13,033 nt of DNA. Source: Candidatus Thorarchaeota archaeon (GTDB taxonomy: Archaea > Asgardarchaeota > Thorarchaeia > Thorarchaeales > Thorarchaeaceae). The stretch spans positions 1 to 13,033 of the forward strand of contig JAWOEX010000016.1 of assembly GCA_046482545.1 (NCBI GenBank). The letters are read 5' to 3'. This document shows, piece by piece, positions 1 through 13,033 of this stretch. The position numbers were made by a program, and so were the translations under genes. The notes under the pieces are model-generated. The model was not told the DNA's origin and searched no databases. It was given only the letters and a program-made list of their open reading frames with translations. Position 1 is the stretch's first letter. Each line of letters starts with the position of its first letter.

Positions 1-249
1 TGCCCTCTGTGTGATTGGCATCAGATGTCAGTCTCCACTCAGATGAATACAACTGGAGAACACAACCCAGCGAAAGCACTCGCTCTAACCGCATCTTCCT
101 ATTGTAGTGGAAGAAACCTGACATTTGACTCCCGTTCCTACTATCCTGACATGAGAAAGAGCGGCACTATTTGAGACTTGCTCTCAGAATCAACCACGAA
201 TAGGCACAACTAGGAAAACAGAACAAAGCTGTCTGTAAAGAACAACAAG

Positions 250-424
250 ACGGTACGTCAGCTCTTCTCAAAAACAACTCTACTGAAAATAAAATAGATG
301 CTGAGGATGGAGGTACTGCTTTTCTGAGGTCTGACCCAAATCTTGACAACTCTAGGTGTTGCACGAGCTACATTTTCGGTCCGCTCACCTCGGACATTAG
401 TAACGGTGAGCTGAACACCTCGCC
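250..424. repeat. Dispersed non-coding repeat, copy 1 (full length)
   Basis: ACGG-N8-CTCTTCT, A-rich linker, ATGCTGAGGAT (298-308), TCTTGACAACTCTAGGTGTTGCACGAG, GGTGAGCTGAACACCTCGCC. Nearly identical to copies 3, 5 and 6 by direct comparison. Confidence 0.95.
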
Positions 425-542
425 AGTATAGGTCTAGCTGTGGAACTATTCTCCCATTTCTATGGATGTTGGCAAGTAGTGCAACTGCCGTTACTGCATC
501 TCCAAGTATGAAAACGGATATATCTTGTAAGCATTGATTATT

Positions 543-1496
543 CTATACCAAAATATTCTGCATTGTTTCATTAAGCTCTGCATTAATAGCATCGTGGAAT
601 CTAGACATAGTCTCAATAAGCTCGTCTTGAATCTCAGGCCATTTATCTTCATCTTCAAGGCCCACACCTTCTCTTTTCCATCGAACAATACACGCGCGTC
701 TCCCCTCTTTGTGATCCCACTCCAGTGAAGAGCCGAATTTCTCCTCTATTTCTTTCTTGGACCCCCGAAGGCTGTCTAGTATTCTTCTATTATCCTCAGG
801 GCTCTTTGTGTCGATGTACAAATCAACGCTAACGTAATCATATGTCGCTGTATATTTGTAGGTAATGCCAGCCCACCCAGCGCTTTTCTGGATGTAGTCC
901 ATTTTACCTGGAGATATACCTCTGAATAAGTGATTAGGTGTCGATTCGCTTTTCTCAAGCAATTTCGTCCAGAACTTGTTTCTCAGCTTGTGATACCGTG
1001 CATTTCGCTCCTTGGCTCGACCTGATTCCTTTGTCTCTTCGCTCGGTGCAGAAATAGTGGTGAACAAAGGTGCTGGTGCTGAATCCCCTATCCGTACTAC
1101 CTGTACTTTTACCAGATAAAACGATACATCAACCGCTGATACTTCATTCAGCCAGGATATTGCCGTTACATGCTCAGGTCGCGGGTTCGTACAAATCCAT
1201 ATAGCCGTCTTCGCTTCCAAATTTGTCAAATATGTTAATAGTTGGCCAAGGTGTTTGTGATCACTATCGCTTAACTGACATTCAATAACAACGCGTTCTC
1301 CACTCTTATCTTCAATGAGAACATCAGCCGAAAAATCACCCGCCGGAAATTCTGTATCCGTCGGTACAAGAGGGATATCAAGTTCCAGAGATTCATTCAG
1401 AAGTTCTATATTGTCCCCAAGCCATCTGTTGAAATCTCGACGTTCATCTGGCCAGACCTCGCGAATAGGCACTGTTTCGAGTTTTTCTGTTTCCAA
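543..1496 (-). CDS. DUF4268-domain protein with N-terminal PD-(D/E)XK-like (NucS/EndoMS-like) nuclease domain
   Basis: 317 aa, TTG start preceded by GGTGG. Motifs WPDERRDFNRWL, FSADV, VVIECQL..SDHKHLGQLLTY and C-terminal FWTKLLE...IEEKFGSSLEW are typical of this family. Confidence 0.85.
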   Translation of the reverse strand: METEKLETVPIREVWPDERRDFNRWLGDNIELLNESLELDIPLVPTDTEFPAGDFSADVLIEDKSGERVVIECQLSDSDHKHLGQLLTYLTNLEAKTAIWICTNPRPEHVTAISWLNEVSAVDVSFYLVKVQVVRIGDSAPAPLFTTISAPSEETKESGRAKERNARYHKLRNKFWTKLLEKSESTPNHLFRGISPGKMDYIQKSAGWAGITYKYTATYDYVSVDLYIDTKSPEDNRRILDSLRGSKKEIEEKFGSSLEWDHKEGRRACIVRWKREGVGLEDEDKWPEIQDELIETMSRFHDAINAELNETMQNILV

Positions 1497-1663
1497 CCAA
1501 TACCACCAACATACATCTACAGGCTGGCAATATCAATTTGCTGTGGATATATTGAGGGGTATCAATATCGGCGCACATCAATTATGAGAACTGTGGCCCA
1601 TAAGGCAAGTATTGCTCATAGATTATTTCTCCAAGAAGCTGGCTTGTTTCCAAGAAGGGTGAC

Positions 1664-1775
1664 ACGGAAAATTAGCTCTTCTTGCTTTGAAACTGCATTC
1701 CTAAAATAAAATAAAATAGATGCTGAGGATGGAACCACGTGGTTTTTGGAGAGTCCTACTCAGTCTTACCAAACT
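1664..1775. repeat. Dispersed repeat, copy 2 (diverged, right part missing)
   Basis: ACGG-N8-CTCTTCT at 1664-1682, then AAAATAAAATAGATGCTGAGGATGGA identical to copy 1. Similarity decays around 1775, so the right boundary is approximate. Confidence 0.8.
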
Positions 1776-1810
1776 ACTGCCAGTCTAGCGTTGTCCTTGC
1801 TTATGTTTCT

Positions 1811-2221
1811 TCAAAAGGTCAAAGGAAGACGATAGTCTCTCTTTCGACCTATCAGATCTCCTATGGCTGCGCCTATGATAGGTGGAGCAACCATTAGCAT
1901 CAAGCCAAAGCGACTGTTTGGAGGCGAGATTCCTGTAACTCCGATAATGAATGCACCTCCGAAAAGGACCAAGAGGAAAGCGCCGCAAGCCCCGAGGGTC
2001 ACGTATACTGCTCTGTTCACCCCTTTGTGTGGATGTAGACGGATGTAGTATGCAAAATAAATCATGATAAGACCCAGGGCCAATGCACCAGCAGCAGTTT
2101 GGAGAGGAATTTGCAGGAACAAATAGCCGAGAACTGCGAAAGCAACAGCAACAAGTGGGATAGCTATCCAGAGCGGCTTCCACCACCATGGGTTTGAATC
2201 TTCGACTTCCCTGTTAGGCAT
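1811..2221 (-). CDS. Hypothetical membrane protein (about 4 TM helices)
   Basis: 136 aa ORF with four hydrophobic stretches, ATG start, TTTAAAT box about 32 nt upstream. Confidence 0.8.
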   Translation of the reverse strand: MPNREVEDSNPWWWKPLWIAIPLVAVAFAVLGYLFLQIPLQTAAGALALGLIMIYFAYYIRLHPHKGVNRAVYVTLGACGAFLLVLFGGAFIIGVTGISPPNSRFGLMLMVAPPIIGAAIGDLIGRKRDYRLPLTF

Positions 2222-2252
2222 ATAAAATCAGTATTGTAATTCTCATATTTCC

Positions 2253-2259
2253 ATTTAAA
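2253..2259 (-). promoter_or_regulatory. Putative archaeal TATA box for the 136 aa gene
   Basis: TTTAAAT on the minus strand, about 32 nt upstream of the ATG at 2221. Confidence 0.4.
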
Positions 2260-2354
2260 CAAATTGCTAAAAAGAACGCCATGATTCTATCGTGAGCCAA
2301 TTAGGCGTAGATGCCGAAGGATCGTCGAATCTGCAAGCGAGAAATAACTGGAAC

Positions 2355-2520
2355 GCGGAGTAACATCTCTCCTCTCAACAACAACTCTACTGAAATAAAA
2401 TAGATGCTGAGGATGGAGGTACTGCTTTTCTGAGGTTCCGCTCAAATCTTGACAACTCTAGGTGTTGCACGAGCTACATTTTCGGTCTGCTCGCCTCGGA
2501 CATTAGTAGCGGTGAGCTGA
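2355..2520. repeat. Dispersed repeat, copy 3 (lacks last ~10 bp)
   Basis: GCGG-N8-CTC start, core at 2404-2414, matches copy 1 through GGTGAGCTGA, then diverges. Confidence 0.95.
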
Positions 2521-2586
2521 CATTCCAATATTCGGTGCTTACACGATTTCACAGCGATTTTGTAACTTCATTTCACGAGCCTTGGC

Positions 2587-2739
2587 TTATTCAGGGAAAT
2601 ATCCCTTCGGAGGGTCGAGGGGATCGGATGTCCAGTGAGGCCCACCACCTTCAATCATTTCCCTTGGCATTTCCCAGAAATTCTCTGCGAAATGACGTAT
2701 CCATCTATCTCTCGATTCCACGGTTTTCGGTTTGATATT
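2587..2739 (-). pseudogene. Possible 3' gene remnant or 44-50 aa small ORF
   Basis: Stop-free frame NIKPKTVESRDRWIRHFAENFWEMPREMIEGGGPHWTSDPLDPPKGYFPE*, possible GTG at 2721. Translated by hand; no family recognised. Confidence 0.25.
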
Positions 2740-2833
2740 CTAATCAACGAACTCCGCTACGCGGTTTTGTCTATATTTTTGAGAAAGCAGAATCCTTAGA
2801 AAAAAACATATCATTTATTAAGATTAGTTGACA

Positions 2834-2841
2834 TTTATAAA
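2834..2841 (+). promoter_or_regulatory. Putative archaeal TATA box for the 225 aa gene
   Basis: TTTATAAA in an AT-rich tract 47 nt upstream of ATG 2889. Confidence 0.45.
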
Positions 2842-2888
2842 GTAATACCTGTTTATGAGATATTCGCGTGGAAATTCGCTAGCATAAT

Positions 2889-3566
2889 ATGGAGGAAAAT
2901 ATAGTGGAGAGAATAAGAATAAAGCGGCATAATCTCGAAATAATCATTATGGGATTTGTTCTCATATCTTTCATCATTGTTCCAGCTGACGCTGCTTTTT
3001 CAGGTACCGACACACCACCCTATCCTTATGGTGGAGTTGATTCGTACAAGGATTTTGCTGTACGTACTGCTGACTCTGATACTGGCATCTGTAAGATAAG
3101 ATGCGTGGATCTAGGATGGCCGGGATCCTATGCTGCAGGTACGAACGACAGAGCTTGGGTTGGATCCACTTATCTAACAACAGAAGAAGTTACGAATAAT
3201 TGGAAGATTGTAGCTCAGTGGGATTTGACTTACGAGTTGGAGAGTTGGTGGTGGAGCACAATAAGAATAGAAATCTGGTATACAGTTAGGAAAGGAAACG
3301 GCGACTGGGTATGGGGGTTTGAAGTCTGGTCAGATGAAGTAACTGGAGGTTTTGATTGGGTTACCAAAGGAAAATCGATTTCAAATAAAGAGATAGAGCA
3401 GGGGTTTGGCATAAACTTAGATAATGGCATTTACTATCACTTCTGTGTCGAGCTTAGAGTAGTAGTACCAGATGGAGGTGGTGCGTGCAAGGCCCATGAA
3501 AATAACAACGAGAATAATCCTGCCAAGTTAACTGTTGACGAAATCTCATGGTCATATTTGGTTTAA
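2889..3566 (+). CDS. Hypothetical secreted protein (signal peptide, Trp-rich, probably beta-rich)
   Basis: 225 aa. Basic n-region, hydrophobic IIIMGFVLISFIIVP, ADA/AA cleavage-like site, 4 Cys. Confidence 0.8.
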   Translation: MEENIVERIRIKRHNLEIIIMGFVLISFIIVPADAAFSGTDTPPYPYGGVDSYKDFAVRTADSDTGICKIRCVDLGWPGSYAAGTNDRAWVGSTYLTTEEVTNNWKIVAQWDLTYELESWWWSTIRIEIWYTVRKGNGDWVWGFEVWSDEVTGGFDWVTKGKSISNKEIEQGFGINLDNGIYYHFCVELRVVVPDGGGACKAHENNNENNPAKLTVDEISWSYLV

Positions 3567-3666
3567 TCCAGTAGGGCAAATCAATCTGAGCTATAATTCA
3601 ACGTCTGCTCTTTCGCCTTCTTACATTCGAAGTGTAGATTGATTGTATTACGGAGATTCGATAGTT

Positions 3667-3723
3667 TGAAATGCATAAGAAGAATGAAATGCATTTCACT
3701 AATAGTATGATGCACTATTAAAA
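3667..3723 (+). promoter_or_regulatory. Operator-like repeats plus TATA-like box upstream of the 163 aa gene
   Basis: TGAAATGCAT at 3667-3676 and 3685-3694, the second extending to the perfect palindrome TGAAATGCATTTCA (3685-3698). AATAGT/ACTATT inverted repeat at 3701-3719, TATTAAAA at 3716-3723. Confidence 0.4.
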
Positions 3724-3745
3724 CTAAACAAAGGGAGTAGTCAAG

Positions 3746-4237
3746 GTGCGACAAAGATATGGTTTTCTGACATCAACTTTGCCTGTTATTCTCGTAGCTA
3801 TACTCTTCTCCTTTCCATACATGTTTGAGATAAGGGGAGATTCAATCTACTCTGAATTGAGCTATTCCCTAATTGCGTATACATATACGATTGCAACTTG
3901 GGGTACTACCCTTTTGGAGCTGCCAGTTCCTTCATACGTCCTGTTCGGACATATTTATGACACAATCATGTATTTCGTCTTCATAGCTGCAGTTTCTGCA
4001 TATTACGATGGGAAAGTAACCCATAGAAACGTCAAGATTCTTGGTATTCTAACCATATTACCACGATTAATCCCCACTTTTGTCTATTCTTTCTTCGTAT
4101 TTGTCCTCTGGGGTGGACACCACCTTCATCTCAGCTTTCCATTGCCCTTTGTCACCATAATTGGAGTCATTGCTGTCAAACTAGTACCTTCGATTCCGGA
4201 AGAAGAGGACAAATGGTTAGAAGAGAAAGAAAAGTAG
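3746..4237 (+). CDS. Hypothetical membrane protein (4-5 TM helices)
   Basis: 163 aa, GTG start after GGGAG, several hydrophobic segments, charged C-terminal tail (EEEDKWLEEKEK). Confidence 0.8.
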   Translation: MRQRYGFLTSTLPVILVAILFSFPYMFEIRGDSIYSELSYSLIAYTYTIATWGTTLLELPVPSYVLFGHIYDTIMYFVFIAAVSAYYDGKVTHRNVKILGILTILPRLIPTFVYSFFVFVLWGGHHLHLSFPLPFVTIIGVIAVKLVPSIPEEEDKWLEEKEK

Positions 4238-4311
4238 AGTATCAATATAGTACCCAGCTTTGAATGGCAGACCATTCTAAGACATAGAAACCTTTTCGCT
4301 GTGAAACATGG

Positions 4312-4440
4312 TCAAAGTTCTTCAAACAAGGCCGCATTAACATCACGGGCTGAGCGTGCTACCTGCTGAAGATCAATACCGCTTCCCGTCATGTCTGTTC
4401 CTGCGATATAGAGTCCTTCAACTGGCGGCGACATTTCCAT
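4312..4440 (-). pseudogene. C-terminal remnant of an FAD-dependent oxidoreductase (phytoene desaturase/amine oxidase-like)
   Basis: Hand translation MEMSPPVEGLYIAGTDMTGSGIDLQQVARSARDVNAALFEEL* resembles the C-terminal PVxGLYxAG...G+helix motif of this family. An in-frame stop lies 13 codons upstream. Confidence 0.6.
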
Positions 4441-4630
4441 GGAAATTGCAATAAAATTTGGATATACTAGGTTGTATTAGTATATAAGGAATGCGAGCCA
4501 TCTAACTGCGTGGGGGTTAGGAAAATGCTTTCACAGAGGCTCTATACGCCATAGTCTTTGAGTCAGTAGTCATGTTGTGCTTTTCCTCTCCAAATCAAAT
4601 TTTCCCGTCACGCTATCAAATATCTCATAG

Positions 4631-5500
4631 TCAAGCCGGAACAAGGAAACCCATTTCGTTCACTCGGCAGTACGGATTTGCTCTGAGCAGCTCTTGCAAA
4701 GCATATTGGACACCGATTACCTCCTGAGGGTGCCCCATCCGTTTGAGAACATCAATCAGAAAGTGCCAGCCGCGAACAAAGGTAGGATTGATTTTCAACA
4801 CACGTGCCATGGTCGTTCTTGTTTGCTCTAGGTGTCCTGTTTTGAAGCAGAGCCTTGCATGCCGCCAAGCAACACGAAAGTCATCCGGAGCAAGCTGTAA
4901 CGCTTTTGCAGACAGTTCGAGTCCTTTTCGTGCGTGACCTTGATTGTACAAGACTATCCCCAGCATGGACCACGCTCTAGCATTTTCGGGCATAGCTTCG
5001 ATTATTATCCGCAGGTTCTCTTCTGCAGCTTCGAACTTGTGACGATCATTGAGCATGTCAACAAAGTGATATCGTAATGCGTGGTTGTCTGGGTCTAGTT
5101 CCAAGGCCTTACGAAACGCGTCTTCTGCTTCATTCGTTTCGCGGTCCATGTACAGCATACCTAGGGAAGCCCAGACTTTCGGATTGTTCGCGTCGAGGCT
5201 TAGGCATTTCTGAAGGGCTTCCTCAGCCTTTTCTTCTGCACCGTGAATCGAAAGGTGATTTCCCCATGCACCCCATGTCCAGGGGTACTCAGGGTTTATC
5301 TCAAAAGCACGGTCGAAACACTTCGCAGCCTTCTCGGGCCTTCCGGAAACCGAGTACGTTATGCCGAGATTTCCCCATGCTTCGATGTAGTTTGGATCAA
5401 GTTCAGTGGCTTCCTTGAAAACACGTTCGGCTTCGGTATGTTGTTCCTGCTTCAAGTAGTCCATACCCTCCCGAACAAGGGCTTGAGCTTCACCATTCAT
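4631..5500 (-). CDS. Tetratricopeptide repeat (TPR) protein
   Basis: 289 aa with about 7-8 repeats of about 34 aa (AWGNLGITY, KAAKCFDRAFEINPEY, VWASLGMLY, AFRKALELDPDN, AWSMLGIVL). Confidence 0.92.
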   Translation of the reverse strand: MNGEAQALVREGMDYLKQEQHTEAERVFKEATELDPNYIEAWGNLGITYSVSGRPEKAAKCFDRAFEINPEYPWTWGAWGNHLSIHGAEEKAEEALQKCLSLDANNPKVWASLGMLYMDRETNEAEDAFRKALELDPDNHALRYHFVDMLNDRHKFEAAEENLRIIIEAMPENARAWSMLGIVLYNQGHARKGLELSAKALQLAPDDFRVAWRHARLCFKTGHLEQTRTTMARVLKINPTFVRGWHFLIDVLKRMGHPQEVIGVQYALQELLRANPYCRVNEMGFLVPA

Positions 5501-5602
5501 GACCCTCTGTTTCTGAGGCTCTTATTATGCTCATATCTCAGACTGAACGAACAACCACAACAAGGAATCATTCGTTAAGCTGAAACTCTTGAAAACTTCA
5601 AG

Positions 5603-5745
5603 ACGAAAAAATGGCTCGTCCTGCAAAAACAAATCTACTGAAACAATGACAATACTGAAAGATGCTGAGGATAAAGACTCTGCTTCTCGAGGTTCCTGTC
5701 AAATCGTAGCAACTCTAGGTGTTGCACGAGCTATACGTTCGGTCC
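5603..5745. repeat. Dispersed repeat, copy 4 (diverged, right-truncated)
   Basis: ACGA-N8-CTC start, core at 5662-5672, CAACTCTAGGTGTTGCACGAGCTA conserved, ends at TTCGGTCC. Internal duplication of TACTGAAA (5636-5643, 5653-5660). Confidence 0.9.
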
Positions 5746-5847
5746 TGTAAGATTGCCAATTTTCTTTCCAAAGTTTGGGGGCCTTTTTTACCTCCAGTAG
5801 GACACAGCTTTCCAGCTACCCAACCAATCAGTGATACCTCGTGAAGC

Positions 5848-6123
5848 ATGGGGAGAGCCAAAGGTGGAAAGTCTATGAGTATTATTGGTCCGAGATTCCC
5901 TGCAGATCCAGAAACCATTGATATCATTCTCTCGCGGATACTGGGGGCAGCTCTATCTAATGCGTGTATCACCCATGACGACAAGGACTTCTTGTTCTTC
6001 GGTAAACATAGAGCTCAGGCCCAGGATTTCATAGAGCACGTGAGCGCCCTTGGGGTTGTTCAGTATAGTGAGGAGACAAGAGACGGGAGGAGAGGTTTCT
6101 GGCTACGTTTCCCGGGTGTCTAA
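5848..6123 (+). pseudogene. Degenerate LAGLIDADG-like endonuclease domain fragment
   Basis: 91 aa. LSRILGAALSNACI resembles a LAGLIDADG helix with DG replaced by NA, followed by a plausible strand-helix-strand pattern (FLFFGK..AQDFIEHVSALG..FWLRFP). Confidence 0.45.
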
Positions 6124-6188
6124 TTAATACTCCTTGAGCAGTTCTGTCGAATGAATGCATGTATTATGAAGATTCAGAGACTCGATAG

Positions 6189-6614
6189 CTAGGTTTTTGT
6201 CAATTTAAAATATAAACCTAAACAGGCGTAGCCGGCGCCGATTCCCAATAACACTACAACAGCACTCAAATCCACCATGTTATAGCCAAGGAAGTACCAA
6301 TTAGTAAACAGAGATTTTCCCACGATTAGAACAAAAAGTACTGGCATGAATATGGCCAATATCATGAAACCGGCTAATCCAGGAGCATGCAATCCCTTGT
6401 CACCCAATCTAACTAGCAATTCAAAGCCAATTGATGCACATGCAAAAGACATCAGAATTATAATCATGAAAATTATTAGAATATCCAGCGGCTGAAGAGA
6501 CAGCCTAAGGTGACTCGAGCTGACGGCAACAACGGACATGAATACAAAGAAGAACCCGTAGATTGTTGTCAAGCTTTTCAGTATGTCACTATCATCGTTA
6601 AACAATAAACACAC
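6189..6614 (-). CDS. Hypothetical membrane protein (about 4 TM helices), start uncertain
   Basis: 141 aa strongly hydrophobic ORF with a weak GTG start; possibly 5'-truncated. Confidence 0.6.
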   Translation of the reverse strand: MCLLFNDDSDILKSLTTIYGFFFVFMSVVAVSSSHLRLSLQPLDILIIFMIIILMSFACASIGFELLVRLGDKGLHAPGLAGFMILAIFMPVLFVLIVGKSLFTNWYFLGYNMVDLSAVVVLLGIGAGYACLGLYFKLTKT

Positions 6615-6772
6615 CCCACGATATTGTCAGTTGGCTTAATGTCTCTCTTTAGCCTTCTAAAGGAAGATGTCCGTGAAGCCCTTGGACTTGAAAATGAAGG
6701 GTAAGCACATTCACACAAGATTTGCACAAAACATTGCGACAACCACCTATAACTTATATCTGTCTGTTGCCA

Positions 6773-6802
6773 TTTTATAGTGTAGTAACCAAGAAGAGGT
6801 GA
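6773..6802 (+). promoter_or_regulatory. TATA-like box and Shine-Dalgarno of the four-gene operon
   Basis: TTTTATAG at 6773-6780; GAGGTGA at 6796-6802, 9 nt before ATG 6812. Confidence 0.55.
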
Positions 6803-6811
6803 GGGAATGCT

Positions 6812-7399
6812 ATGACATCAGAAGAGAACGAAGATTGGCAACCACAATCCGGGCTTGATGTATTGCTGATGCTACTGTATGCTCCCGAGCATGGCGAGGA
6901 GAGTACTCCGGTAAAGGGAATAACTCGTCTTGACAAACTCGTTTTTCTATTGAGCAGATTCGATGAATTTGAGGGGTTGTTCAAGGACGATTATGATTTC
7001 GTACCCTACAACTTCGGTCCATTCGCAACTGAACTACTAGATGATTTAGAGGCCCTCAAGTCACAAAAAGTAATCAGTGCTACCAAAGAGAAATCAACAC
7101 GTGCATCCGAAACAAGGGATGCTGAAGCGATTGACGAGGAGACGGGCGAGTTAGACGACTCTGATGTAACATGGGATATGTACGACTACGAAGTATATAG
7201 ACTAACGGAGGCGGGACAAGATATTGCCAAGAGAATCTATTCTGCTGCCACAAAGGAACAGCGAGAGATAGTAAGAAGAATAAAAGAGAGATTCAATCAG
7301 AAATCACTAACAGGGCTTCTAAGGTATGTTTACAAGACATATCCGTACTATGCTAAAGAGTCAAACATCAGACCGAAGATACTAGGAAGGTCTGCATAA
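6812..7399 (+). CDS. Panacea/SocA (DUF4065)/YwgA-like winged-helix protein, putative antitoxin
   Basis: 195 aa. LLMLLYA, GITRLDKLVFLL, YDFVPYNFGPFATELLDDLEAL, YRLTEAG and LLRYVYKTYP match the KLxF/Y...GP signature of this superfamily. Confidence 0.75.
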   Translation: MTSEENEDWQPQSGLDVLLMLLYAPEHGEESTPVKGITRLDKLVFLLSRFDEFEGLFKDDYDFVPYNFGPFATELLDDLEALKSQKVISATKEKSTRASETRDAEAIDEETGELDDSDVTWDMYDYEVYRLTEAGQDIAKRIYSAATKEQREIVRRIKERFNQKSLTGLLRYVYKTYPYYAKESNIRPKILGRSA

Positions 7400-7401
7400 C
7401 A

Positions 7402-8028
7402 TTGTCGGTTATCCATACGTTCCTAGAAGCGGCCATCATATCTTTCATCACGATCTCTACCAAGTTATGGTGGGATTTGCGCCAATCAGGTTTGGAATTT
7501 GACAAGCAATTCAGAGATAATTTGACTGAATATAAGGAGGAGTACTGGAGTAGGTTTGTAGTTACTCCCCTTTCCAAATTCTTTGAAAAAGCATCCGAGT
7601 TAATAGAAAGCCAACCTCAGGACTATGGTGGTCTAAAAGATGTGTTAGATCACAGAAGCTATGGCTCTACTCTTGAAGAGCATATATTGGAGGCATCGGA
7701 GCAACATGAGGTCTACAGAAGGCTTTCAAATCTCACGACATCTTTCAAGAAAGCCCAAGATTCTCAAAGAACATGGATAGGAAGAACAATCCTAATTCTT
7801 ATTATCTTGCTTGGTACCATTGGAGTTGACTTTATCAATCAATACTTGGTTGATTCGGGTTTTTCAATCAGTTCTGCTCTGATCAGGGTTCCTTGTTTAG
7901 TCATATTCATTGTTTCATGCATAGGATCTCTCTTCACATCCACAAGATTCATTCTAGCATATAATAAGCACCAAGACTTGCAATCCTTTTATTCCAATTG
8001 TCAGGACAAAATCCATGGAGTGAAATAA
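7402..8028 (+). CDS. Hypothetical membrane protein (N-terminal TM, helical soluble region, 2 C-terminal TMs)
   Basis: 208 aa, TTG start 2 nt after the previous stop; hydrophobic segments near residues 5-22, 127-145 and 157-186. Confidence 0.75.
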   Translation: MSVIHTFLEAAIISFITISTKLWWDLRQSGLEFDKQFRDNLTEYKEEYWSRFVVTPLSKFFEKASELIESQPQDYGGLKDVLDHRSYGSTLEEHILEASEQHEVYRRLSNLTTSFKKAQDSQRTWIGRTILILIILLGTIGVDFINQYLVDSGFSISSALIRVPCLVIFIVSCIGSLFTSTRFILAYNKHQDLQSFYSNCQDKIHGVK

Positions 8029-8032
8029 GGCT

Positions 8033-8578
8033 ATGGTCAGGAGAGGAATACGTTATGAAGAAATACTGACAGATATTGTTGTAAGCTATCTTCGGGATAA
8101 ATGCGTTAGATTTGGGTGGCAAATTCCCGCATTGGAGGGAAGAATTGACTTCGTAGGAATTCGAAAATCATATGAGGTAATCGTTATCGAGACCAAGGCG
8201 TCTAATTGGAAAAATGCTCTTTTACAGGCAAATAGGTATCAGCTTTGCAGTGATAAAGCCTATATTGCTGTCCCCCCGAACATAGCTAAAAAGGCAAATG
8301 AACACTCAAAGGTATTCCGAAAGAGAGGGATAGGGCTGATGTGTGTCGATGATTCTATTGAGATTATGATAGGTGCTAGAAAAACGAACCTCTTTGTTCC
8401 CCAATTTCGGCAATATCTACTTCAGGTAACCAAAGAGCGACAAAAAAGAGCTGTAGAGGCGGTAGAGGAATTGGTTGAAAGGCACCTTTCTTCTAATGAT
8501 TCTGACTCTTTTCAGCCAATGGCTTTGGAAGAGCAGAATAAGGCGATGTATTGCGAAGAGGCTTCGGGGATTAGATAA
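8033..8578 (+). CDS. PD-(D/E)XK-superfamily nuclease-like protein
   Basis: 181 aa. N-terminal EE helix, GRIDFVG, VIETK (D...ExK), QANRY (QxxxY), AYIAVP, GIGLM. Confidence 0.8.
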   Translation: MVRRGIRYEEILTDIVVSYLRDKCVRFGWQIPALEGRIDFVGIRKSYEVIVIETKASNWKNALLQANRYQLCSDKAYIAVPPNIAKKANEHSKVFRKRGIGLMCVDDSIEIMIGARKTNLFVPQFRQYLLQVTKERQKRAVEAVEELVERHLSSNDSDSFQPMALEEQNKAMYCEEASGIR

Positions 8579-9906
8579 TGAAAGCGAATAGACCTCAGAG
8601 CTGGATTAGATTTGGCATAAATGCAGAAAAACCAATTCTCACAAGTTGTGTGGATTATTATGATGGCTTAGCTATTCCGGCTCATGTATTTGCTCTATAC
8701 AGAAATTCACTGGGTCAGTCCCTAGTAGAATGGAATAAACCATATTTCATTGACCCTATGACATACGTTTTCCTCAGTAATAGAGCCATTGTTAGAAAAA
8801 ATGGAGGGCCAAGGCTCAGGAAATCATATGAGAAGCTATGCGAGTATGATAAGAGAGCTGAATACTATTTGGGTCTTGATGATTTAGATCCAAATGCATT
8901 AAGCAATACAGAAAGGACTGACTTTGCCGACACCATGGCCCGCTTGGTCGTACAAGTCCAATTGGACGGAATAGCTGTTTCTGGCCCCCAAAAGAGAGTG
9001 AAATCACTTCAAAGAATTCAGAAGCATATGTCTGGGGGCAAGGATCAAAAATTTCCAGCCCCTGCATTTCTTGTAAGTCCATATTTCTTCTTTGAGAATG
9101 TGGGAGATTCGACTTATGAATTATGGAAAAAATCTGTAAAGGCTTTTGAAAAGAAGGTTTCAAAGAAAAATACCGACTTACCGATATACAAGGCAGTATG
9201 CACCGGTCAAGAGACTTTGTCTACTCCCCAAGATATTAGCGTTCTGCTCAGTGATTTAGAAGGTTCCGATGGTGTCTTGCTCTGGATTAGTGATTTTGAA
9301 AATAGTGCCGATAATCCCAATCTTCTTGAAGGTTTCGGAAATCTGGTTAAAGGCATAAAAGAAAGCTCAGCAAAAGTGGTATCATTATATGGGGGGTATC
9401 TTACAGCACTATATTATCACTTTGGGCTCGATAGCCTTAGTTTTGGTCTGAGCTATGGAGATAATAAAGAAGTAGGATCATATGCGACTGGGGGTGGAGC
9501 TCCATCTAGATACTATGATCCGAATCTCCACACCTTCATCACTGCAAACAACGCCGTATTATACTATGGTAAATCTCTTCAGAATGCCAAGCGTTTCTCT
9601 TGTGATTGTAGAATTTGCAGAGACACAAAGCAAGCTCTCCAACAGGAGTCCCAAGAAAGCAAGGTCTTACAGCATCTAGAGGGTATTTTCGAGTTCAAGA
9701 GCAAAGCAAAGGTTAGCGCTGACTGGAGCGATATGCGAAAGCATTTCTTGTTCGTTAGAGAGAAAGAACTTGAAAATATTGGCACCAAAAGCTTGTCTGA
9801 CTTAGGAAAAGAAGCTACTGACAATATGTCAGATCTCGGGAGCTCGGAAGTCCTTGATTTTGAGACCTTAGAGATGACTGAACAACTTGCATCTATCGGC
9901 CCATGA
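8578..9906 (+). CDS. tRNA-guanine-transglycosylase-like TIM-barrel protein with CxCxxC...H Zn site (non-canonical active site)
   Basis: 442 aa, TAATG overlap with the upstream gene. YFIDPMTY sits where TGTs have DSGG; GLDSLSFG, CDCRIC (9601-9618) and a downstream helix RKHFL follow. Confidence 0.6.
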   Translation: MKANRPQSWIRFGINAEKPILTSCVDYYDGLAIPAHVFALYRNSLGQSLVEWNKPYFIDPMTYVFLSNRAIVRKNGGPRLRKSYEKLCEYDKRAEYYLGLDDLDPNALSNTERTDFADTMARLVVQVQLDGIAVSGPQKRVKSLQRIQKHMSGGKDQKFPAPAFLVSPYFFFENVGDSTYELWKKSVKAFEKKVSKKNTDLPIYKAVCTGQETLSTPQDISVLLSDLEGSDGVLLWISDFENSADNPNLLEGFGNLVKGIKESSAKVVSLYGGYLTALYYHFGLDSLSFGLSYGDNKEVGSYATGGGAPSRYYDPNLHTFITANNAVLYYGKSLQNAKRFSCDCRICRDTKQALQQESQESKVLQHLEGIFEFKSKAKVSADWSDMRKHFLFVREKELENIGTKSLSDLGKEATDNMSDLGSSEVLDFETLEMTEQLASIGP

Positions 9907-9922
9907 TTACCGTAAAGAGGTC

Positions 9923-9959
9923 ATAGAATTCCATTTTCATTGGATTTCTATTTCACTTT
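9923..9959 (+). terminator. Possible terminator hairpin after the operon
   Basis: ATAGAATTCCA / TGGATTTCTAT inverted repeat (1 mismatch) followed by a T-rich tract, starting 16 nt after the stop. Confidence 0.35.
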
Positions 9960-9982
9960 GATGGTGGAATCCCACTGGCAAT

Positions 9983-10170
9983 ACGGCAAACCATCTCTTC
10001 TTCTCATAAGAACAATACTACAAAAAACAAACTGATTGAGATATGCTGAGGATGGAGGTACTGCTTTTCTGAGGTTCTGACTCAAATCTTGACAATTCTA
10101 GGTGCAGCACGAGGCATACTTTCGGTCTGCTCGCCTCGGACATTAGTAGCGGTGAGCTGAACACCTCGCC
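9983..10170. repeat. Dispersed repeat, copy 5 (full length)
   Basis: ACGG-N8-CTCTTCT start, diverged A-rich linker, core at 10043-10053, ends at GAACACCTCGCC. Confidence 0.95.
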
Positions 10171-10234
10171 GGAGCTCTGATGTATCCGGTTCTATGCTGG
10201 TCAGATCCGAAGAAAATCAAGTAAGGCGCTTCAT

Positions 10235-11086
10235 CTATTCGAGATATCCCATTTTCTTCACAAACAGCACATAGACACCTATGAGAGCAATGGCCGCTAC
10301 TACGCCAATAATCGGGTGGGTTATGTTGGGATTGTCCAGCAGACCGTTTTCCACCTTGACCATGCCCAAAAAACTTGCATTTCCTCTCTCGCCACGGATA
10401 TCGTAGGCGACAACAGACACGTTGTACCAACCGTTTTCATACTCGTACGTGTGCCAGACAAGGTCTATATCGACATCGCCTAGATCAGATTCCCGGAAGA
10501 CCTTTTCCGCGACCACTGTTCCGTTGGCAAGCAGTTCAACTTCCCTGATAGCAAAACAGTCGTCCCATGCACTCGCATCTATCACCATGTCACCACGTAC
10601 CGTTCCGCTAACGGCAGCAGCTCTAGCACGAGGCGGTTCGGTGTTCGTCCTGATCGTAAGCTCAACCCGCGCGCTGTAAAGGAGATACGGAGTATCTGAG
10701 GCTTTCGAGAAATACACGTACCACTGGTCTGTGTGTGATGCGGTGAAATTCCAATAATATTCGTGACCGTTGTCACGCGGACAATCCTGCTGTTTGTACG
10801 GCTTTTCTGGCTCGGTATCGTTTTGAATCCGGTAATGGTCAGCCTGATCAACGATGAAGAATCGCACACCTTCGCCTTCTTCTATGCTGAACCAGCCGGC
10901 CATGGCGTCCCCTTCTTCTAGAGATGCGCTGTACCACTTGCGCTTGCCAGCCAATAACTCAAATTGCTCATCTTGGACAATATTCGTAGCATGTGCTGGC
11001 TGAGGGATTTGACCGATGAACATGACACTGGTTGCTACAAGCAATATCAGAGATACTAACGCTAACTTCCTCCTCACTGTAACCAC
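10235..11086 (-). CDS. Membrane-anchored surface protein (signal peptide, GOLD/emp24-like beta-sandwich, Ig-like domain, C-terminal TM)
   Basis: 283 aa. RRK plus hydrophobic core plus AHA signal; LEEGD..GWFSI..VRFFIVD..YYWNFTA..WYVYFS; Ig-like VELLANG..WHT..ENGWYNVSVVAYD; C-terminal TM followed by KK. Confidence 0.8.
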   Translation of the reverse strand: MVTVRRKLALVSLILLVATSVMFIGQIPQPAHATNIVQDEQFELLAGKRKWYSASLEEGDAMAGWFSIEEGEGVRFFIVDQADHYRIQNDTEPEKPYKQQDCPRDNGHEYYWNFTASHTDQWYVYFSKASDTPYLLYSARVELTIRTNTEPPRARAAAVSGTVRGDMVIDASAWDDCFAIREVELLANGTVVAEKVFRESDLGDVDIDLVWHTYEYENGWYNVSVVAYDIRGERGNASFLGMVKVENGLLDNPNITHPIIGVVAAIALIGVYVLFVKKMGYLE

Positions 11087-11111
11087 ATTCGTATATTGTT
11101 TCTCGTTTCAT

Positions 11112-11125
11112 TACTTAAATTTTGC
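11112..11125 (-). promoter_or_regulatory. Putative BRE/TATA for the 283 aa gene
   Basis: GCAAAA-TTTAAGTA on the minus strand about 26 nt upstream of GTG 11086, a leaderless-type spacing. Confidence 0.45.
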
Positions 11126-11222
11126 AGGTATTTCGGGAGCAGTTGGGAATACAGCACTCATGTAACTGATTTCTTCAGTAGCTTGTCATGATAGTATCAA
11201 GGGCGAATCGCAGTCTATATTG

Positions 11223-12617
11223 CTATTCGTAGGGCTGTTTGAGAATGATTTCCACGGTCACTGTCAGGGTGCAATCTGTCGAGTTGGAATCCTCCCTGAA
11301 GTACTGTACAGCCCATGTGAAGTTGCCATAGCTATCCCCAATGAAAGTAAGCCCACCTCCTGTGTCGGGATGCTCCCGGTCAATCAACATGGCATAGCCA
11401 CTAAAGAGGTTGATTTTGCCCTCTTCACTCATCTCCAAAAAGTCCTCAAGAGGATATTGCACTAACCCAAATCGAGCGTTGAGCGGCTCAGGACAACTAC
11501 CCCAATTGATGATTGTGATTGTGAGCTTATAGGCATTCTGTCTTCCACTCGGTGGTTCGGGAAGTTCCACCTGACCACACAACCATTCTCCAAGTTGGAT
11601 AACGAAGCCTTCCTCCGGGCTGCTATAAATCACCTCCTCTTGGGGTTCAACTTCCGCGGGGATAGTTAACATACCAGCAAGGGGAATCACCAGCCAGAGC
11701 AGCACAAGTCCGATGACAGCCCCCTGTCGCTGCTGCCTAAGGCGCTTCCTCATCGTCTTCAAGGACTGGACTGCCCCCTGCACTTTGCTTGTTCCGTCCT
11801 GGTCTTCGTCGTCGGCAAAGGCATCTGCTGTTTCCAACCGCCAGCGCTGGATATCCTCTCGGAACACGTAGAGGCCACCGGCTGCGGCTGCCAGTGATAT
11901 GCCTATGAGAACCCCCAGCGGCAGCATGAGATCGCCAAGATAAACCACGAGAGACATGGTCATACTCATATGGGTATCAGTGACAAACTCATGCCGAGAC
12001 AAAAGTACAGTCAGAAACCTATACAGATGATAGAAGCTGAAGAGTGATTTCGAGCCATAGGCTCCTAGTGATTGGGGCGTTGGCCCGAAGAAGAATCCTG
12101 GGAGGATGAACACCGCTGTGTTGAACGCAATGGCGCCCCTCCAGTCATCGATAAGCAGTGTACCAAGAGTACATATTGAAACGAGGATCCACGAAATCAC
12201 CAGACCAGAAAGCAGTGTAACCGGAAAGTCCCAGAGCATGACGGCGAAGCTGAGGTTTGGAAAAGCTTGGGCGGCCATAACGAACGAGATGAAAATCAGT
12301 CCTGAGAACAGCGCAAAGGCCATGATAAACAAGACGAACAAACAGACCGCGAAGACAATGATAGGCCGTCTGCCCTCATCAATAGACCTTGACAGCACGT
12401 TGCGCGAAGTCTCTGTCCCAAAGAACAGAGCTGCCCCCAGCGAGAAAGGTATCCCGTGGAGCAGGACGGTGGCTGACAGGTTGGTCGTATAGATTAGCGC
12501 ACCTAAATACCCAGAGGCTCCTAGAATCGGAAACATGAATGTCAAGGCGAAACTCGCAATGGACGTAATAACCCAGACCAATACTGTTTGTGAAGGCACT
12601 TTGAAGATGTCTTTCAT
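11223..12617 (-). CDS. Polytopic membrane protein (ABC-2 permease-like N-terminal region plus C-terminal extracytoplasmic domain)
   Basis: 464 aa with about 7-8 hydrophobic segments, an acidic/basic linker, a final TM and a roughly 140 aa beta-rich tail. The permease likeness rests on topology only. Confidence 0.75.
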   Translation of the reverse strand: MKDIFKVPSQTVLVWVITSIASFALTFMFPILGASGYLGALIYTTNLSATVLLHGIPFSLGAALFFGTETSRNVLSRSIDEGRRPIIVFAVCLFVLFIMAFALFSGLIFISFVMAAQAFPNLSFAVMLWDFPVTLLSGLVISWILVSICTLGTLLIDDWRGAIAFNTAVFILPGFFFGPTPQSLGAYGSKSLFSFYHLYRFLTVLLSRHEFVTDTHMSMTMSLVVYLGDLMLPLGVLIGISLAAAAGGLYVFREDIQRWRLETADAFADDEDQDGTSKVQGAVQSLKTMRKRLRQQRQGAVIGLVLLWLVIPLAGMLTIPAEVEPQEEVIYSSPEEGFVIQLGEWLCGQVELPEPPSGRQNAYKLTITIINWGSCPEPLNARFGLVQYPLEDFLEMSEEGKINLFSGYAMLIDREHPDTGGGLTFIGDSYGNFTWAVQYFREDSNSTDCTLTVTVEIILKQPYE

Positions 12618-12781
12618 TGGGAAATGTCCCCCATCGCTCTTTCCTGTCTTCTAACCACTATAATACGGGAGTTTTGTCCCTTAGAGTAGTATCTCCTGTG
12701 TACGTGATGAGATGCATACCTGATAGTATTTTCGGTCGTATTCTTGAATGAGATATCATCTCATCATTTCTATCAACGACA

Positions 12782-12938
12782 CTGCAAAAACAAGTCTACT
12801 GAAATAAAATAGATGCTGAGGATGGAGGTACTGATTCTTGAGATTCTGCTCAAATCTTGACAACTCTAGGTGCAGCACGAGCTATATTTTCGATCCGCTC
12901 GTCTCGGACAGTAGTAGCGGTGAGCTGAACACCTCGCC
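12782..12938. repeat. Dispersed repeat, copy 6 (complete right end, lacks the left RCGR-N8-CTC motif)
   Basis: CTGCAAAAACAA start shared with copy 4, core at 12813-12823, ends at GAACACCTCGCC. Confidence 0.95.
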
Positions 12939-13033
12939 GCCACCGGTTATTGTCGCTTCTTGATGTAAAGAACAACAAGGATTACGACTACTCCAGCCGC
13001 GGTACCAGACACAAGCATGAGGAGCAGTGGGTG

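What the first reader, a model, noticed from the sequence alone, without database searches (positions are those of the whole stretch)
250..12938. Integron-like cassette array built on a non-attC ~170-bp repeat
Seen: six co-oriented copies with core-to-core spacings of 1422, 684, 3258, 4381 and 2770 bp. All are intergenic, and each interval holds 1-6 unrelated accessory genes (nucleases, antitoxin-like, TPR, membrane/secreted orphans) with no housekeeping genes. Random insertion would give one orientation only 1 time in 32. Known: integron arrays, including archaeal ones, have this layout, but attC sites run RYYYAAC...GTTRRRY around one long hairpin and are usually divergent. This repeat has no such terminal boxes, no terminal inverted repeats and no visible target-site duplication. 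Inference: it is the recombination or capture site of an undescribed system that stockpiles accessory and defence cargo, with the enzyme encoded outside the window.
Basis: partly seen in the sequence, partly recalled or inferred. Interest (0 to 1): 0.92.

Follow-up and report, generated by a model that had tools for sequence, protein, structure and literature searches.

The report
Gene cassettes stacked behind rRNA genes
The repeat is a spare copy of the tail of the 23S ribosomal RNA gene: in Thorarchaeia (Asgard archaea) dozens of swappable gene blocks have piled up behind both the 23S and the 16S gene, separated by such tails, and they appear to be shuffled by ordinary homologous recombination, not by an integrase.

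Summary
Observation confirmed: six co-oriented copies at exactly the stated spacings. The repeat is not a new site. Read on the minus strand it is the last 0-64 nt of the 23S rRNA plus its trailer, which holds the 3' strand of the bulge-helix-bulge processing stem; RNA runs show the expected circular pre-23S junction there. The genome (Thorarchaeia) has 33 displaced tails in about 76 kb of contigs that trail its single 23S gene. Such arrays occur in 8 genera, and a second array, built from the unrelated 16S trailer, follows the 16S gene. Cassettes shared by three species keep their own junctions but change order. Tail ends are ragged, and exchange is spread along the whole tail. No tyrosine or large serine recombinase was found in three near-complete genomes of the genus, and no resolvase, RT, IS110 or Cas1 in this one. 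Best reading (0.55): homology-driven additive integration and shuffling, with rRNA ends as anchors. Not an integron. I found no paper describing it, but this scan has noted 23S-tail arrays before in Hodarchaeales and Micrarchaeota, and the 16S array in this genome.

The parts
250..424 (-). 23S-tail copy 1: positions -46 to +127 around the 23S 3' end, 94% identical to the native locus
1612..1772 (-). 23S-tail copy 2, degenerate: +29 to +186, 65%
2353..2544 (-). 23S-tail copy 3: -64 to +129, 85%
5603..5744 (-). 23S-tail copy 4: -3 to +127, 73%
9977..10177 (-). 23S-tail copy 5: -53 to +133, 82%
10093..10103 (-). 3' strand of the bulge-helix-bulge motif within copy 5. In RNA contigs, sequence like this is joined to the 23S 5' leader between 10098 and 10097 (circular pre-23S junction, which comes from the native gene)
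   Evidence: (table 7)
12785..12939 (-). 23S-tail copy 6: -47 to +108, 90%; nearest to the 23S gene
1..249 (-). Start of cassette 'F'; the same flank follows a tail on C18, C13, C31 and in relative G001
425..1611 (.). Cassette with one gene, 543-1496 (-): DUF4268 protein, PADLOC candidate PDC-S11 (E 1e-108)
1773..2352 (.). Cassette with a 136-aa membrane protein, 1811-2221 (-)
2545..5602 (.). Composite cassette: secreted-type protein 2889-3566 (+), membrane protein 3746-4237 (+), TPR protein 4631-5500 (-)
4288..4425 (-). Orphan 3' end of a core protein-coding gene (78% to C26:137401-137537). Relative G001 carries the 3746-4237 gene right behind that core gene, followed by a decayed second copy of its end
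5745..9976 (.). Six-ORF cassette with a four-gene run: SocA/Panacea-like 6812-7399 (weak Pfam hit; PDC-M19A), membrane protein 7402-8028, nuclease-like 8033-8578 (weak NERD/Cas4 hits), 442-aa unknown 8578-9906
10178..12784 (.). Cassette with two genes, 10235-11086 and 11223-12617 (-). Homologues (65-68% nucleotide identity) lie side by side outside any array in G001

Best explanation
An integrase-free, rRNA-anchored accretion island. SHOWN: the repeat is the 3' end of the single 23S gene plus its processing-stem strand and T-rich end. Spare copies lie downstream of the gene only. Each cassette carries two inherited joints (tail-to-cassette and cassette-to-tail), and left and right joints are re-paired in different genomes, so exchange happens inside the tail. 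INFERRED: DNA from a related Thorarchaeon pairs through the conserved rRNA end or through any tail (RadA-type recombination, as a circle or by synthesis-dependent annealing). The donor's tail becomes the live 3' end, its block of genes follows, and the resident tail is pushed downstream as a spacer. A block first becomes a cassette through a one-off illegitimate joint, which explains the ragged, cassette-specific ends. After that, unequal recombination between tails inserts, deletes and reorders it. The same process acts at the 16S end and now and then at other gene ends. The route of DNA entry is unknown.
For: Identity of the repeat; BHB junction in RNA. Arrays in 16 of 20 examined Thorarchaeia genomes (chosen partly for multiple hits), 8 genera, each found with the host's own trailer. 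No 5'-leader copies in 20 loci. Parallel array from the unrelated 16S trailer in G000 and six other genomes of the family, and one other family. Shared cassettes keep junctions at -24, -15 and -7 but have different neighbours; cassettes X and Y are in swapped order in G000 and G001. 69 copies start anywhere from -193 to +48 and end from +3 to +204. Linkage among 72 sequences decays within about 15 nt (r2 0.19, 0.075, 0.04; permutation p 0.0005), with no step at any cut point. Common variants fall on sites where the change keeps pairing with the leader (12 of 37, against 1 of 22; Fisher p 0.011), as expected if the tails were once live. RadA is present. No tyrosine recombinase or large serine recombinase in three genus genomes 96-99% complete; no resolvase, RT, IS110 or Cas1 in G000.
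Against: No recombination event or circle was observed; the contig joints are explained by other copies. The genomes are fragmented MAGs, and an enzyme could visit on a transient element (8 of 18 family genomes hold tyrosine integrases) or belong to an unknown family. Four-gamete counts are inflated by recurrent mutation and by indels at +41 to +47. The pairing test used a cut-off chosen after seeing the data (rank test p 0.06-0.09). Homology alone does not explain the strict 3' polarity, and it does not explain why the native neighbour gene stays next to the 16S while the first spare tail is 8-14 kb away.
Confidence: 0.55

Rival explanations
1. A dedicated site-specific enzyme, of an unrecognised family or supplied in trans by passing mobile elements, integrates att-like circles at rRNA ends, as integrases do at tRNA ends; the ragged ends are later erosion.
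For: The layout equals tandem accretion at tRNA ends. Joints are inherited like att sites. Tail length falls with distance along the array (rho -0.70, p 0.0003), so erosion does occur. Some family genomes hold integrases.
Against: Two unrelated targets, the 16S and 23S trailers. No position is shared by all copies (best 65 of 69). No step in linkage. No recombinase at either array end or among the array ORFs scanned. Near-identical copies are also ragged (G054 +66 to +131 at 98.5%; G057 -56 to +74 at 97.7%).
Confidence: 0.2
2. Breaks concentrate at the end of the heavily transcribed rRNA unit (termination, R-loops or a nuclease) and are repaired by capturing foreign DNA while duplicating the host's own target; the tails are long target-site duplications.
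For: Strict 3' polarity. Nearly identical direct repeats of variable position around first inserts. A similar duplicated end at a protein-coding gene in G001.
Against: It does not by itself give reordering of whole cassettes with preserved joints. Identity to the host tail does not fall with distance (rho -0.09), and the tails carry pair-preserving alleles, which points to donor origin. It could still be how cassettes first arise.
Confidence: 0.15
3. RNA-mediated capture: the splicing endonuclease and ligase join transcripts at the bulge-helix-bulge, and the product is copied into DNA.
For: The repeat contains the live BHB strand, and ligation at it is seen in RNA.
Against: No reverse transcriptase. 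Only 4 of 69 copies start within 6 nt of the cut at +26/+27. Cargo lies on both strands and includes multi-gene blocks with divergent genes.
Confidence: 0.05
4. A divergent integron or CALIN.
For: Integrons and CALINs are enriched in Asgard archaea (PMC9668308); cassette-like layout.
Against: No R boxes, no hairpin, no tyrosine recombinase, mixed gene orientation, and the repeat is fully explained as the 23S tail.
Confidence: 0.02

Closest known systems
Tandem accretion of ICEs, IMEs and CIMEs at the 3' end of tRNA or housekeeping genes (PMC5704250); tRNA-end genomic islands in archaea (PMC12302457)
   Same: New DNA enters at the 3' end of a conserved gene, restores that end and leaves displaced gene tails as direct repeats between stacked, integrase-less blocks.
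   Different: Targets are the 23S and 16S ends with their processing stems; 30 or more small units (median 2.4 kb); no integrase or transfer genes found; ragged ends and dispersed exchange in place of a fixed att core.
Additive flexible genomic islands of Alteromonas (PMC5217437)
   Same: A fixed chromosomal site that varies by gain and loss of gene cassettes shared across species.
   Different: Those vary 'largely by site directed recombination'; here the evidence favours homologous exchange, and the spacers are rRNA tails.
Chromosomal integrons and CALINs, including archaeal ones (PMC9668308)
   Same: An array of accessory, defence and toxin-antitoxin cassettes between co-oriented repeats, reordered between genomes.
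   Different: No IntI, no attC boxes or hairpin, genes in both orientations, multi-gene cassettes, and the repeat is host rRNA sequence.
Homology-facilitated illegitimate recombination (own knowledge; the paper was not held), and rRNA-flanked replacement islands such as SAR11 HVR2 (own knowledge)
   Same: A conserved sequence acts as the homology anchor for foreign DNA.
   Different: Those usually replace or delete resident DNA; here the outcome is additive, and each event leaves a reusable anchor.

Membership tests
Integron / CALIN | attC with R'' and R' boxes (RYYYAAC ... GTTRRRY) | tested here: not met
   No box on either strand of five copies
Integron / CALIN | attC folds into one long single-strand hairpin | tested here: not met
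   z from -0.67 to +1.05 for three copies, both strands
Integron / CALIN | IntI tyrosine recombinase (may be missing in CALINs) | tested here: not met
   No PF00589 match in G000, G001 or G002
Integron / CALIN | Hit to attC covariance model (IntegronFinder, HattCI) | not testable with these tools
   Model not on hand; Rfam gave no hit in the window
Integron / CALIN | Mostly single-gene cassettes in one orientation | tested here: not met
   26 against 29 ORFs by strand; cassettes of 0.6-7 kb
Tandem accretion island at a gene 3' end (ICE/IME/CIME, tRNA islands) | Displaced copy of the target gene's 3' end in direct orientation between units | tested here: met
Tandem accretion island at a gene 3' end (ICE/IME/CIME, tRNA islands) | Units move with their own joints | tested here: met
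Tandem accretion island at a gene 3' end (ICE/IME/CIME, tRNA islands) | Tyrosine or serine integrase in the island or genome | tested here: not met
   supply in trans is not excluded
Tandem accretion island at a gene 3' end (ICE/IME/CIME, tRNA islands) | Fixed short crossover core | tested here: not met
   Ragged ends and no linkage step; indirect
MITE / REP-like dispersed repeat | Scattered genome-wide in both orientations, with terminal inverted repeats | tested here: not met
   Confined to 7 contigs besides the native locus, one orientation each
Archaeal pre-rRNA processing stem (identity of the repeat itself) | Pairs with the 5' leader and forms a bulge-helix-bulge that is cut and ligated | tested here: met
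   Duplex with 3-4-3 motif; leader-trailer junction in RNA contigs of two studies

The most novel reading that the evidence does not exclude
A distinct, widespread archaeal gene-capture platform in which rRNA 3' ends are actively targeted, either by an unrecognised recombinase or nuclease or by a programmed link between rRNA processing or termination and DNA recombination. It would be an integron equivalent that has arisen at both rRNA genes across Asgard and other archaea.
Probability: 0.25. Interest if true: 0.85.

Novelty: new variant of a known kind. Interest (0 to 1): 0.62.

Why it matters
It identifies where a whole class of Asgard archaea stockpiles accessory, defence and membrane genes: roughly 76 kb behind the 23S and 31 kb behind the 16S in this genome, about 3.5% of it. 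It also offers a concrete, testable route for gene gain that needs no known mobile-element enzyme. Twin arrays at two unrelated rRNA ends are a built-in control against sequence-specific recognition. In practice the tails break short-read assemblies, so these regions are fragmented or lost from MAGs, and they are invisible to integron and integrase-based island finders.

Tried and rejected
Rfam on the window gave nothing, because the rRNA piece is too short; the identity came from the genome. Searches for tyrosine recombinase, resolvase, large serine recombinase, RT, IS110 and Cas1 were negative in G000. The single Y1 transposase lies on C24, away from the array, and a DDE transposase on C18 is an IS passenger with relatives elsewhere in the genome. 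Looking for excised circles: the joints come from contigs, carry 'between: not known' and fit other copies of the tail, so they are no evidence either way. Overall conservation of paired against unpaired trailer positions did not differ (p 0.42). Identity to the native tail does not track distance. Patchy RNA cover of cassette genes was not used as evidence of expression. Eight paper searches for this layout found no description; the library is incomplete. The array order cannot be fixed, because contig overlaps branch (C32 to C17 or C45; C13 to C19 or C18), which fits either duplicated cassette starts or strain mixture. No protein structure or complex jobs were run, since the question does not turn on them.
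Full report
OBSERVATION. They are intergenic and co-oriented, but differ in length and have ragged ends; copy 2 is degenerate. Separately assembled contigs from two sediment runs cover the window at even depth, and pieces with no differences cross copies 2 and 4.

HOST AND EXTENT. The window is the whole of contig C19 of a 3.05-Mb, 99% complete genome. The nearest named relatives of the RNase PH gene upstream of its 23S are Thorarchaeota, and the identical hit is a 4-kb contig in a bin labelled Bacillota, probably misbinned. The repeat occurs only on C2, C13, C17, C18, C19, C31, C32 and C45, in one orientation per contig. Exact end overlaps chain C32, C17, C13, C19, C18 and C45 together, with two branch points.

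WHAT THE REPEAT IS. The copy at the end of C2 is continuous with the 23S gene (Rfam RF02540, C2:80561-83864). Each window copy, read on the minus strand, is a piece of the region from -64 to +186 around the 23S 3' end. The trailer pairs with the 23S 5' leader in a long stem containing a 3-nt bulge, 4-bp helix, 3-nt bulge motif. Four window copies pair with the leader at -82 to -87 kcal/mol against about -47 for shuffles. In metatranscriptome contigs from two studies, the trailer is joined to the leader exactly after the second base of each bulge (table 7). That is the circular pre-23S junction known from archaea (own knowledge). It comes from the native gene and shows that this sequence is the working processing site.

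DISTRIBUTION. Using each genome's own trailer, 16 of 20 examined Thorarchaeia genomes from 8 genera have co-oriented copies, directly downstream of the 23S wherever the gene is on the same contig (the sample was chosen partly for multiple hits). One or two copies also follow the 23S in several genomes of other Asgard families, while others have none in 18 kb. The 5' side is stable: in 20 loci RNase PH lies 0.5-2.6 kb upstream and no leader copy was found. The 16S gene has its own array. Six co-oriented copies of the 16S trailer lie within 31 kb downstream in G000, with similar arrays in G001, G002, G004, G005, G011, G016 and in G028 of another family. The 16S and 23S trailers share no significant similarity.

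CASSETTES MOVE AS UNITS. Among three species of the genus, shared cassettes end at the same tail position (-24 for the 5-kb cassette Y; -15; -7) but have different neighbours. X precedes Y in G000 and follows it in G001. The same downstream flank follows tails that have different upstream cassettes. So left and right joints are inherited with their cassettes and re-paired inside the tail. The window's own cassettes were not found in the arrays of five relatives. Several of their genes occur at non-array loci in those relatives at 65-80% nucleotide identity, which suggests capture of chromosomal DNA from kin. One cassette even carries the orphan 3' end of a core gene (4288-4425), and G001 holds the neighbouring cargo gene behind that core gene, with a decayed duplicate of its end. 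Cargo includes defence candidates (PDC-S11; a ShosTA-like pair on C13), PIN, nucleotidyltransferase and HepT proteins, peptidases and transporters, on both strands.

MECHANISM. No tyrosine recombinase was found in the three genus genomes (96-99% complete), and no large serine recombinase in five genomes. G000 also gave no resolvase, RT, IS110 or Cas1. The array ends carry housekeeping-type genes. RadA is present. The 69 displaced copies start between -193 and +48 and end between +3 and +204, with no position common to all. Linkage between variable sites decays within about 15 nt and shows no step, which fits exchange all along the tail; recurrent mutation and indels are caveats. Frequent variants are mostly wobble switches that keep pairing with the leader (modest statistics), as expected if displaced tails were once live trailers. 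I therefore favour homology-driven additive integration and unequal recombination (0.55). The rivals are a hidden or trans-acting site-specific enzyme (0.2), break-directed capture with target duplication (0.15), RNA-mediated capture (0.05) and an integron (0.02). Unexplained: the strict 3' polarity; the 16S neighbour gene staying proximal while spare tails carry only stubs of it; and lone tails far from the main arrays (G000 C31; G016, about 230 kb away).

COMPARISON AND NOVELTY. It works like tandem accretion at tRNA or gene 3' ends (PMC5704250) and like additive flexible islands (PMC5217437). It is laid out like an integron (PMC9668308) but fails every integron feature I could test, and it lacks the integrase and fixed core of classical accretion islands. 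I found no paper describing rRNA-tail arrays; the searched passages of the paper on circular Heimdallarchaeum genomes (PMC8813620) mention an element beside the 16S but not this layout. I reached the 23S-tail reading before consulting earlier notes. The scan had already reported 23S-tail arrays in Hodarchaeales and Micrarchaeota, and first-reader notes cover other contigs of this array and the 16S array in this genome. Those are unchecked notes and not support. Verdict: a real feature and a new variant of a known kind; interest 0.62.

Noticed in passing
L164/L165 (G000:C2:1487-33000): Second cassette array behind the 16S gene, built from six copies of the 16S trailer; some run into the tail of the convergent 365-aa neighbour gene.
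   Followed up: yes
whole genomes G000, G001, G002 and family sample: No tyrosine recombinase at all in the genus. The family's hits are weaker and patchy (best E 5e-27), whereas five genomes of other Asgard families have a 306-315-aa XerA-like protein at E below 1e-40. Thorarchaeia may lack XerA.
   Followed up: partly
window 6812-9906: Four co-oriented genes: SocA/Panacea-like, membrane, nuclease-like, and a 442-aa protein with no Pfam family whose model matches bacterial hypothetical proteins (TM about 0.8) and part of kinase-containing proteins (TM 0.73). Candidate defence operon.
   Followed up: partly
L015:4920-6627 (G000:C13): DprA-like plus PRTase-like pair matching ShosA and ShosT as one cassette.
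   Followed up: partly
G000:C2:33135-33450 and L017:4625-5196: A separate 320-570-bp repeat scattered in both orientations over many contigs (more than 25 hits); one copy sits inside the 23S array. Probably an IS-derived MITE.
   Followed up: no
G000:C26:212396-212972: tRNA-Arg has a duplicate of its 3' end plus 27 nt about 440 nt downstream.
   Followed up: no
L011:10562-13865: The 23S gene is 3304 nt against a 2987-position model, so it carries about 300 nt of insertions.
   Followed up: no
L019:1-990 (G000:C2 start) and L020 (C33 end): The 16S is split over C33 and C2, the overlap is only 93% identical and the first bases of C2 look GC-rich; possible misjoin.
   Followed up: no
L012:16853-16961 (G000:C31); L041:13232-13350 (G016): Lone 23S tails far from the main array, next to a paralogous membrane gene on C31 and about 230 kb from the 23S in G016; possibly relics of rearrangement.
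   Followed up: no
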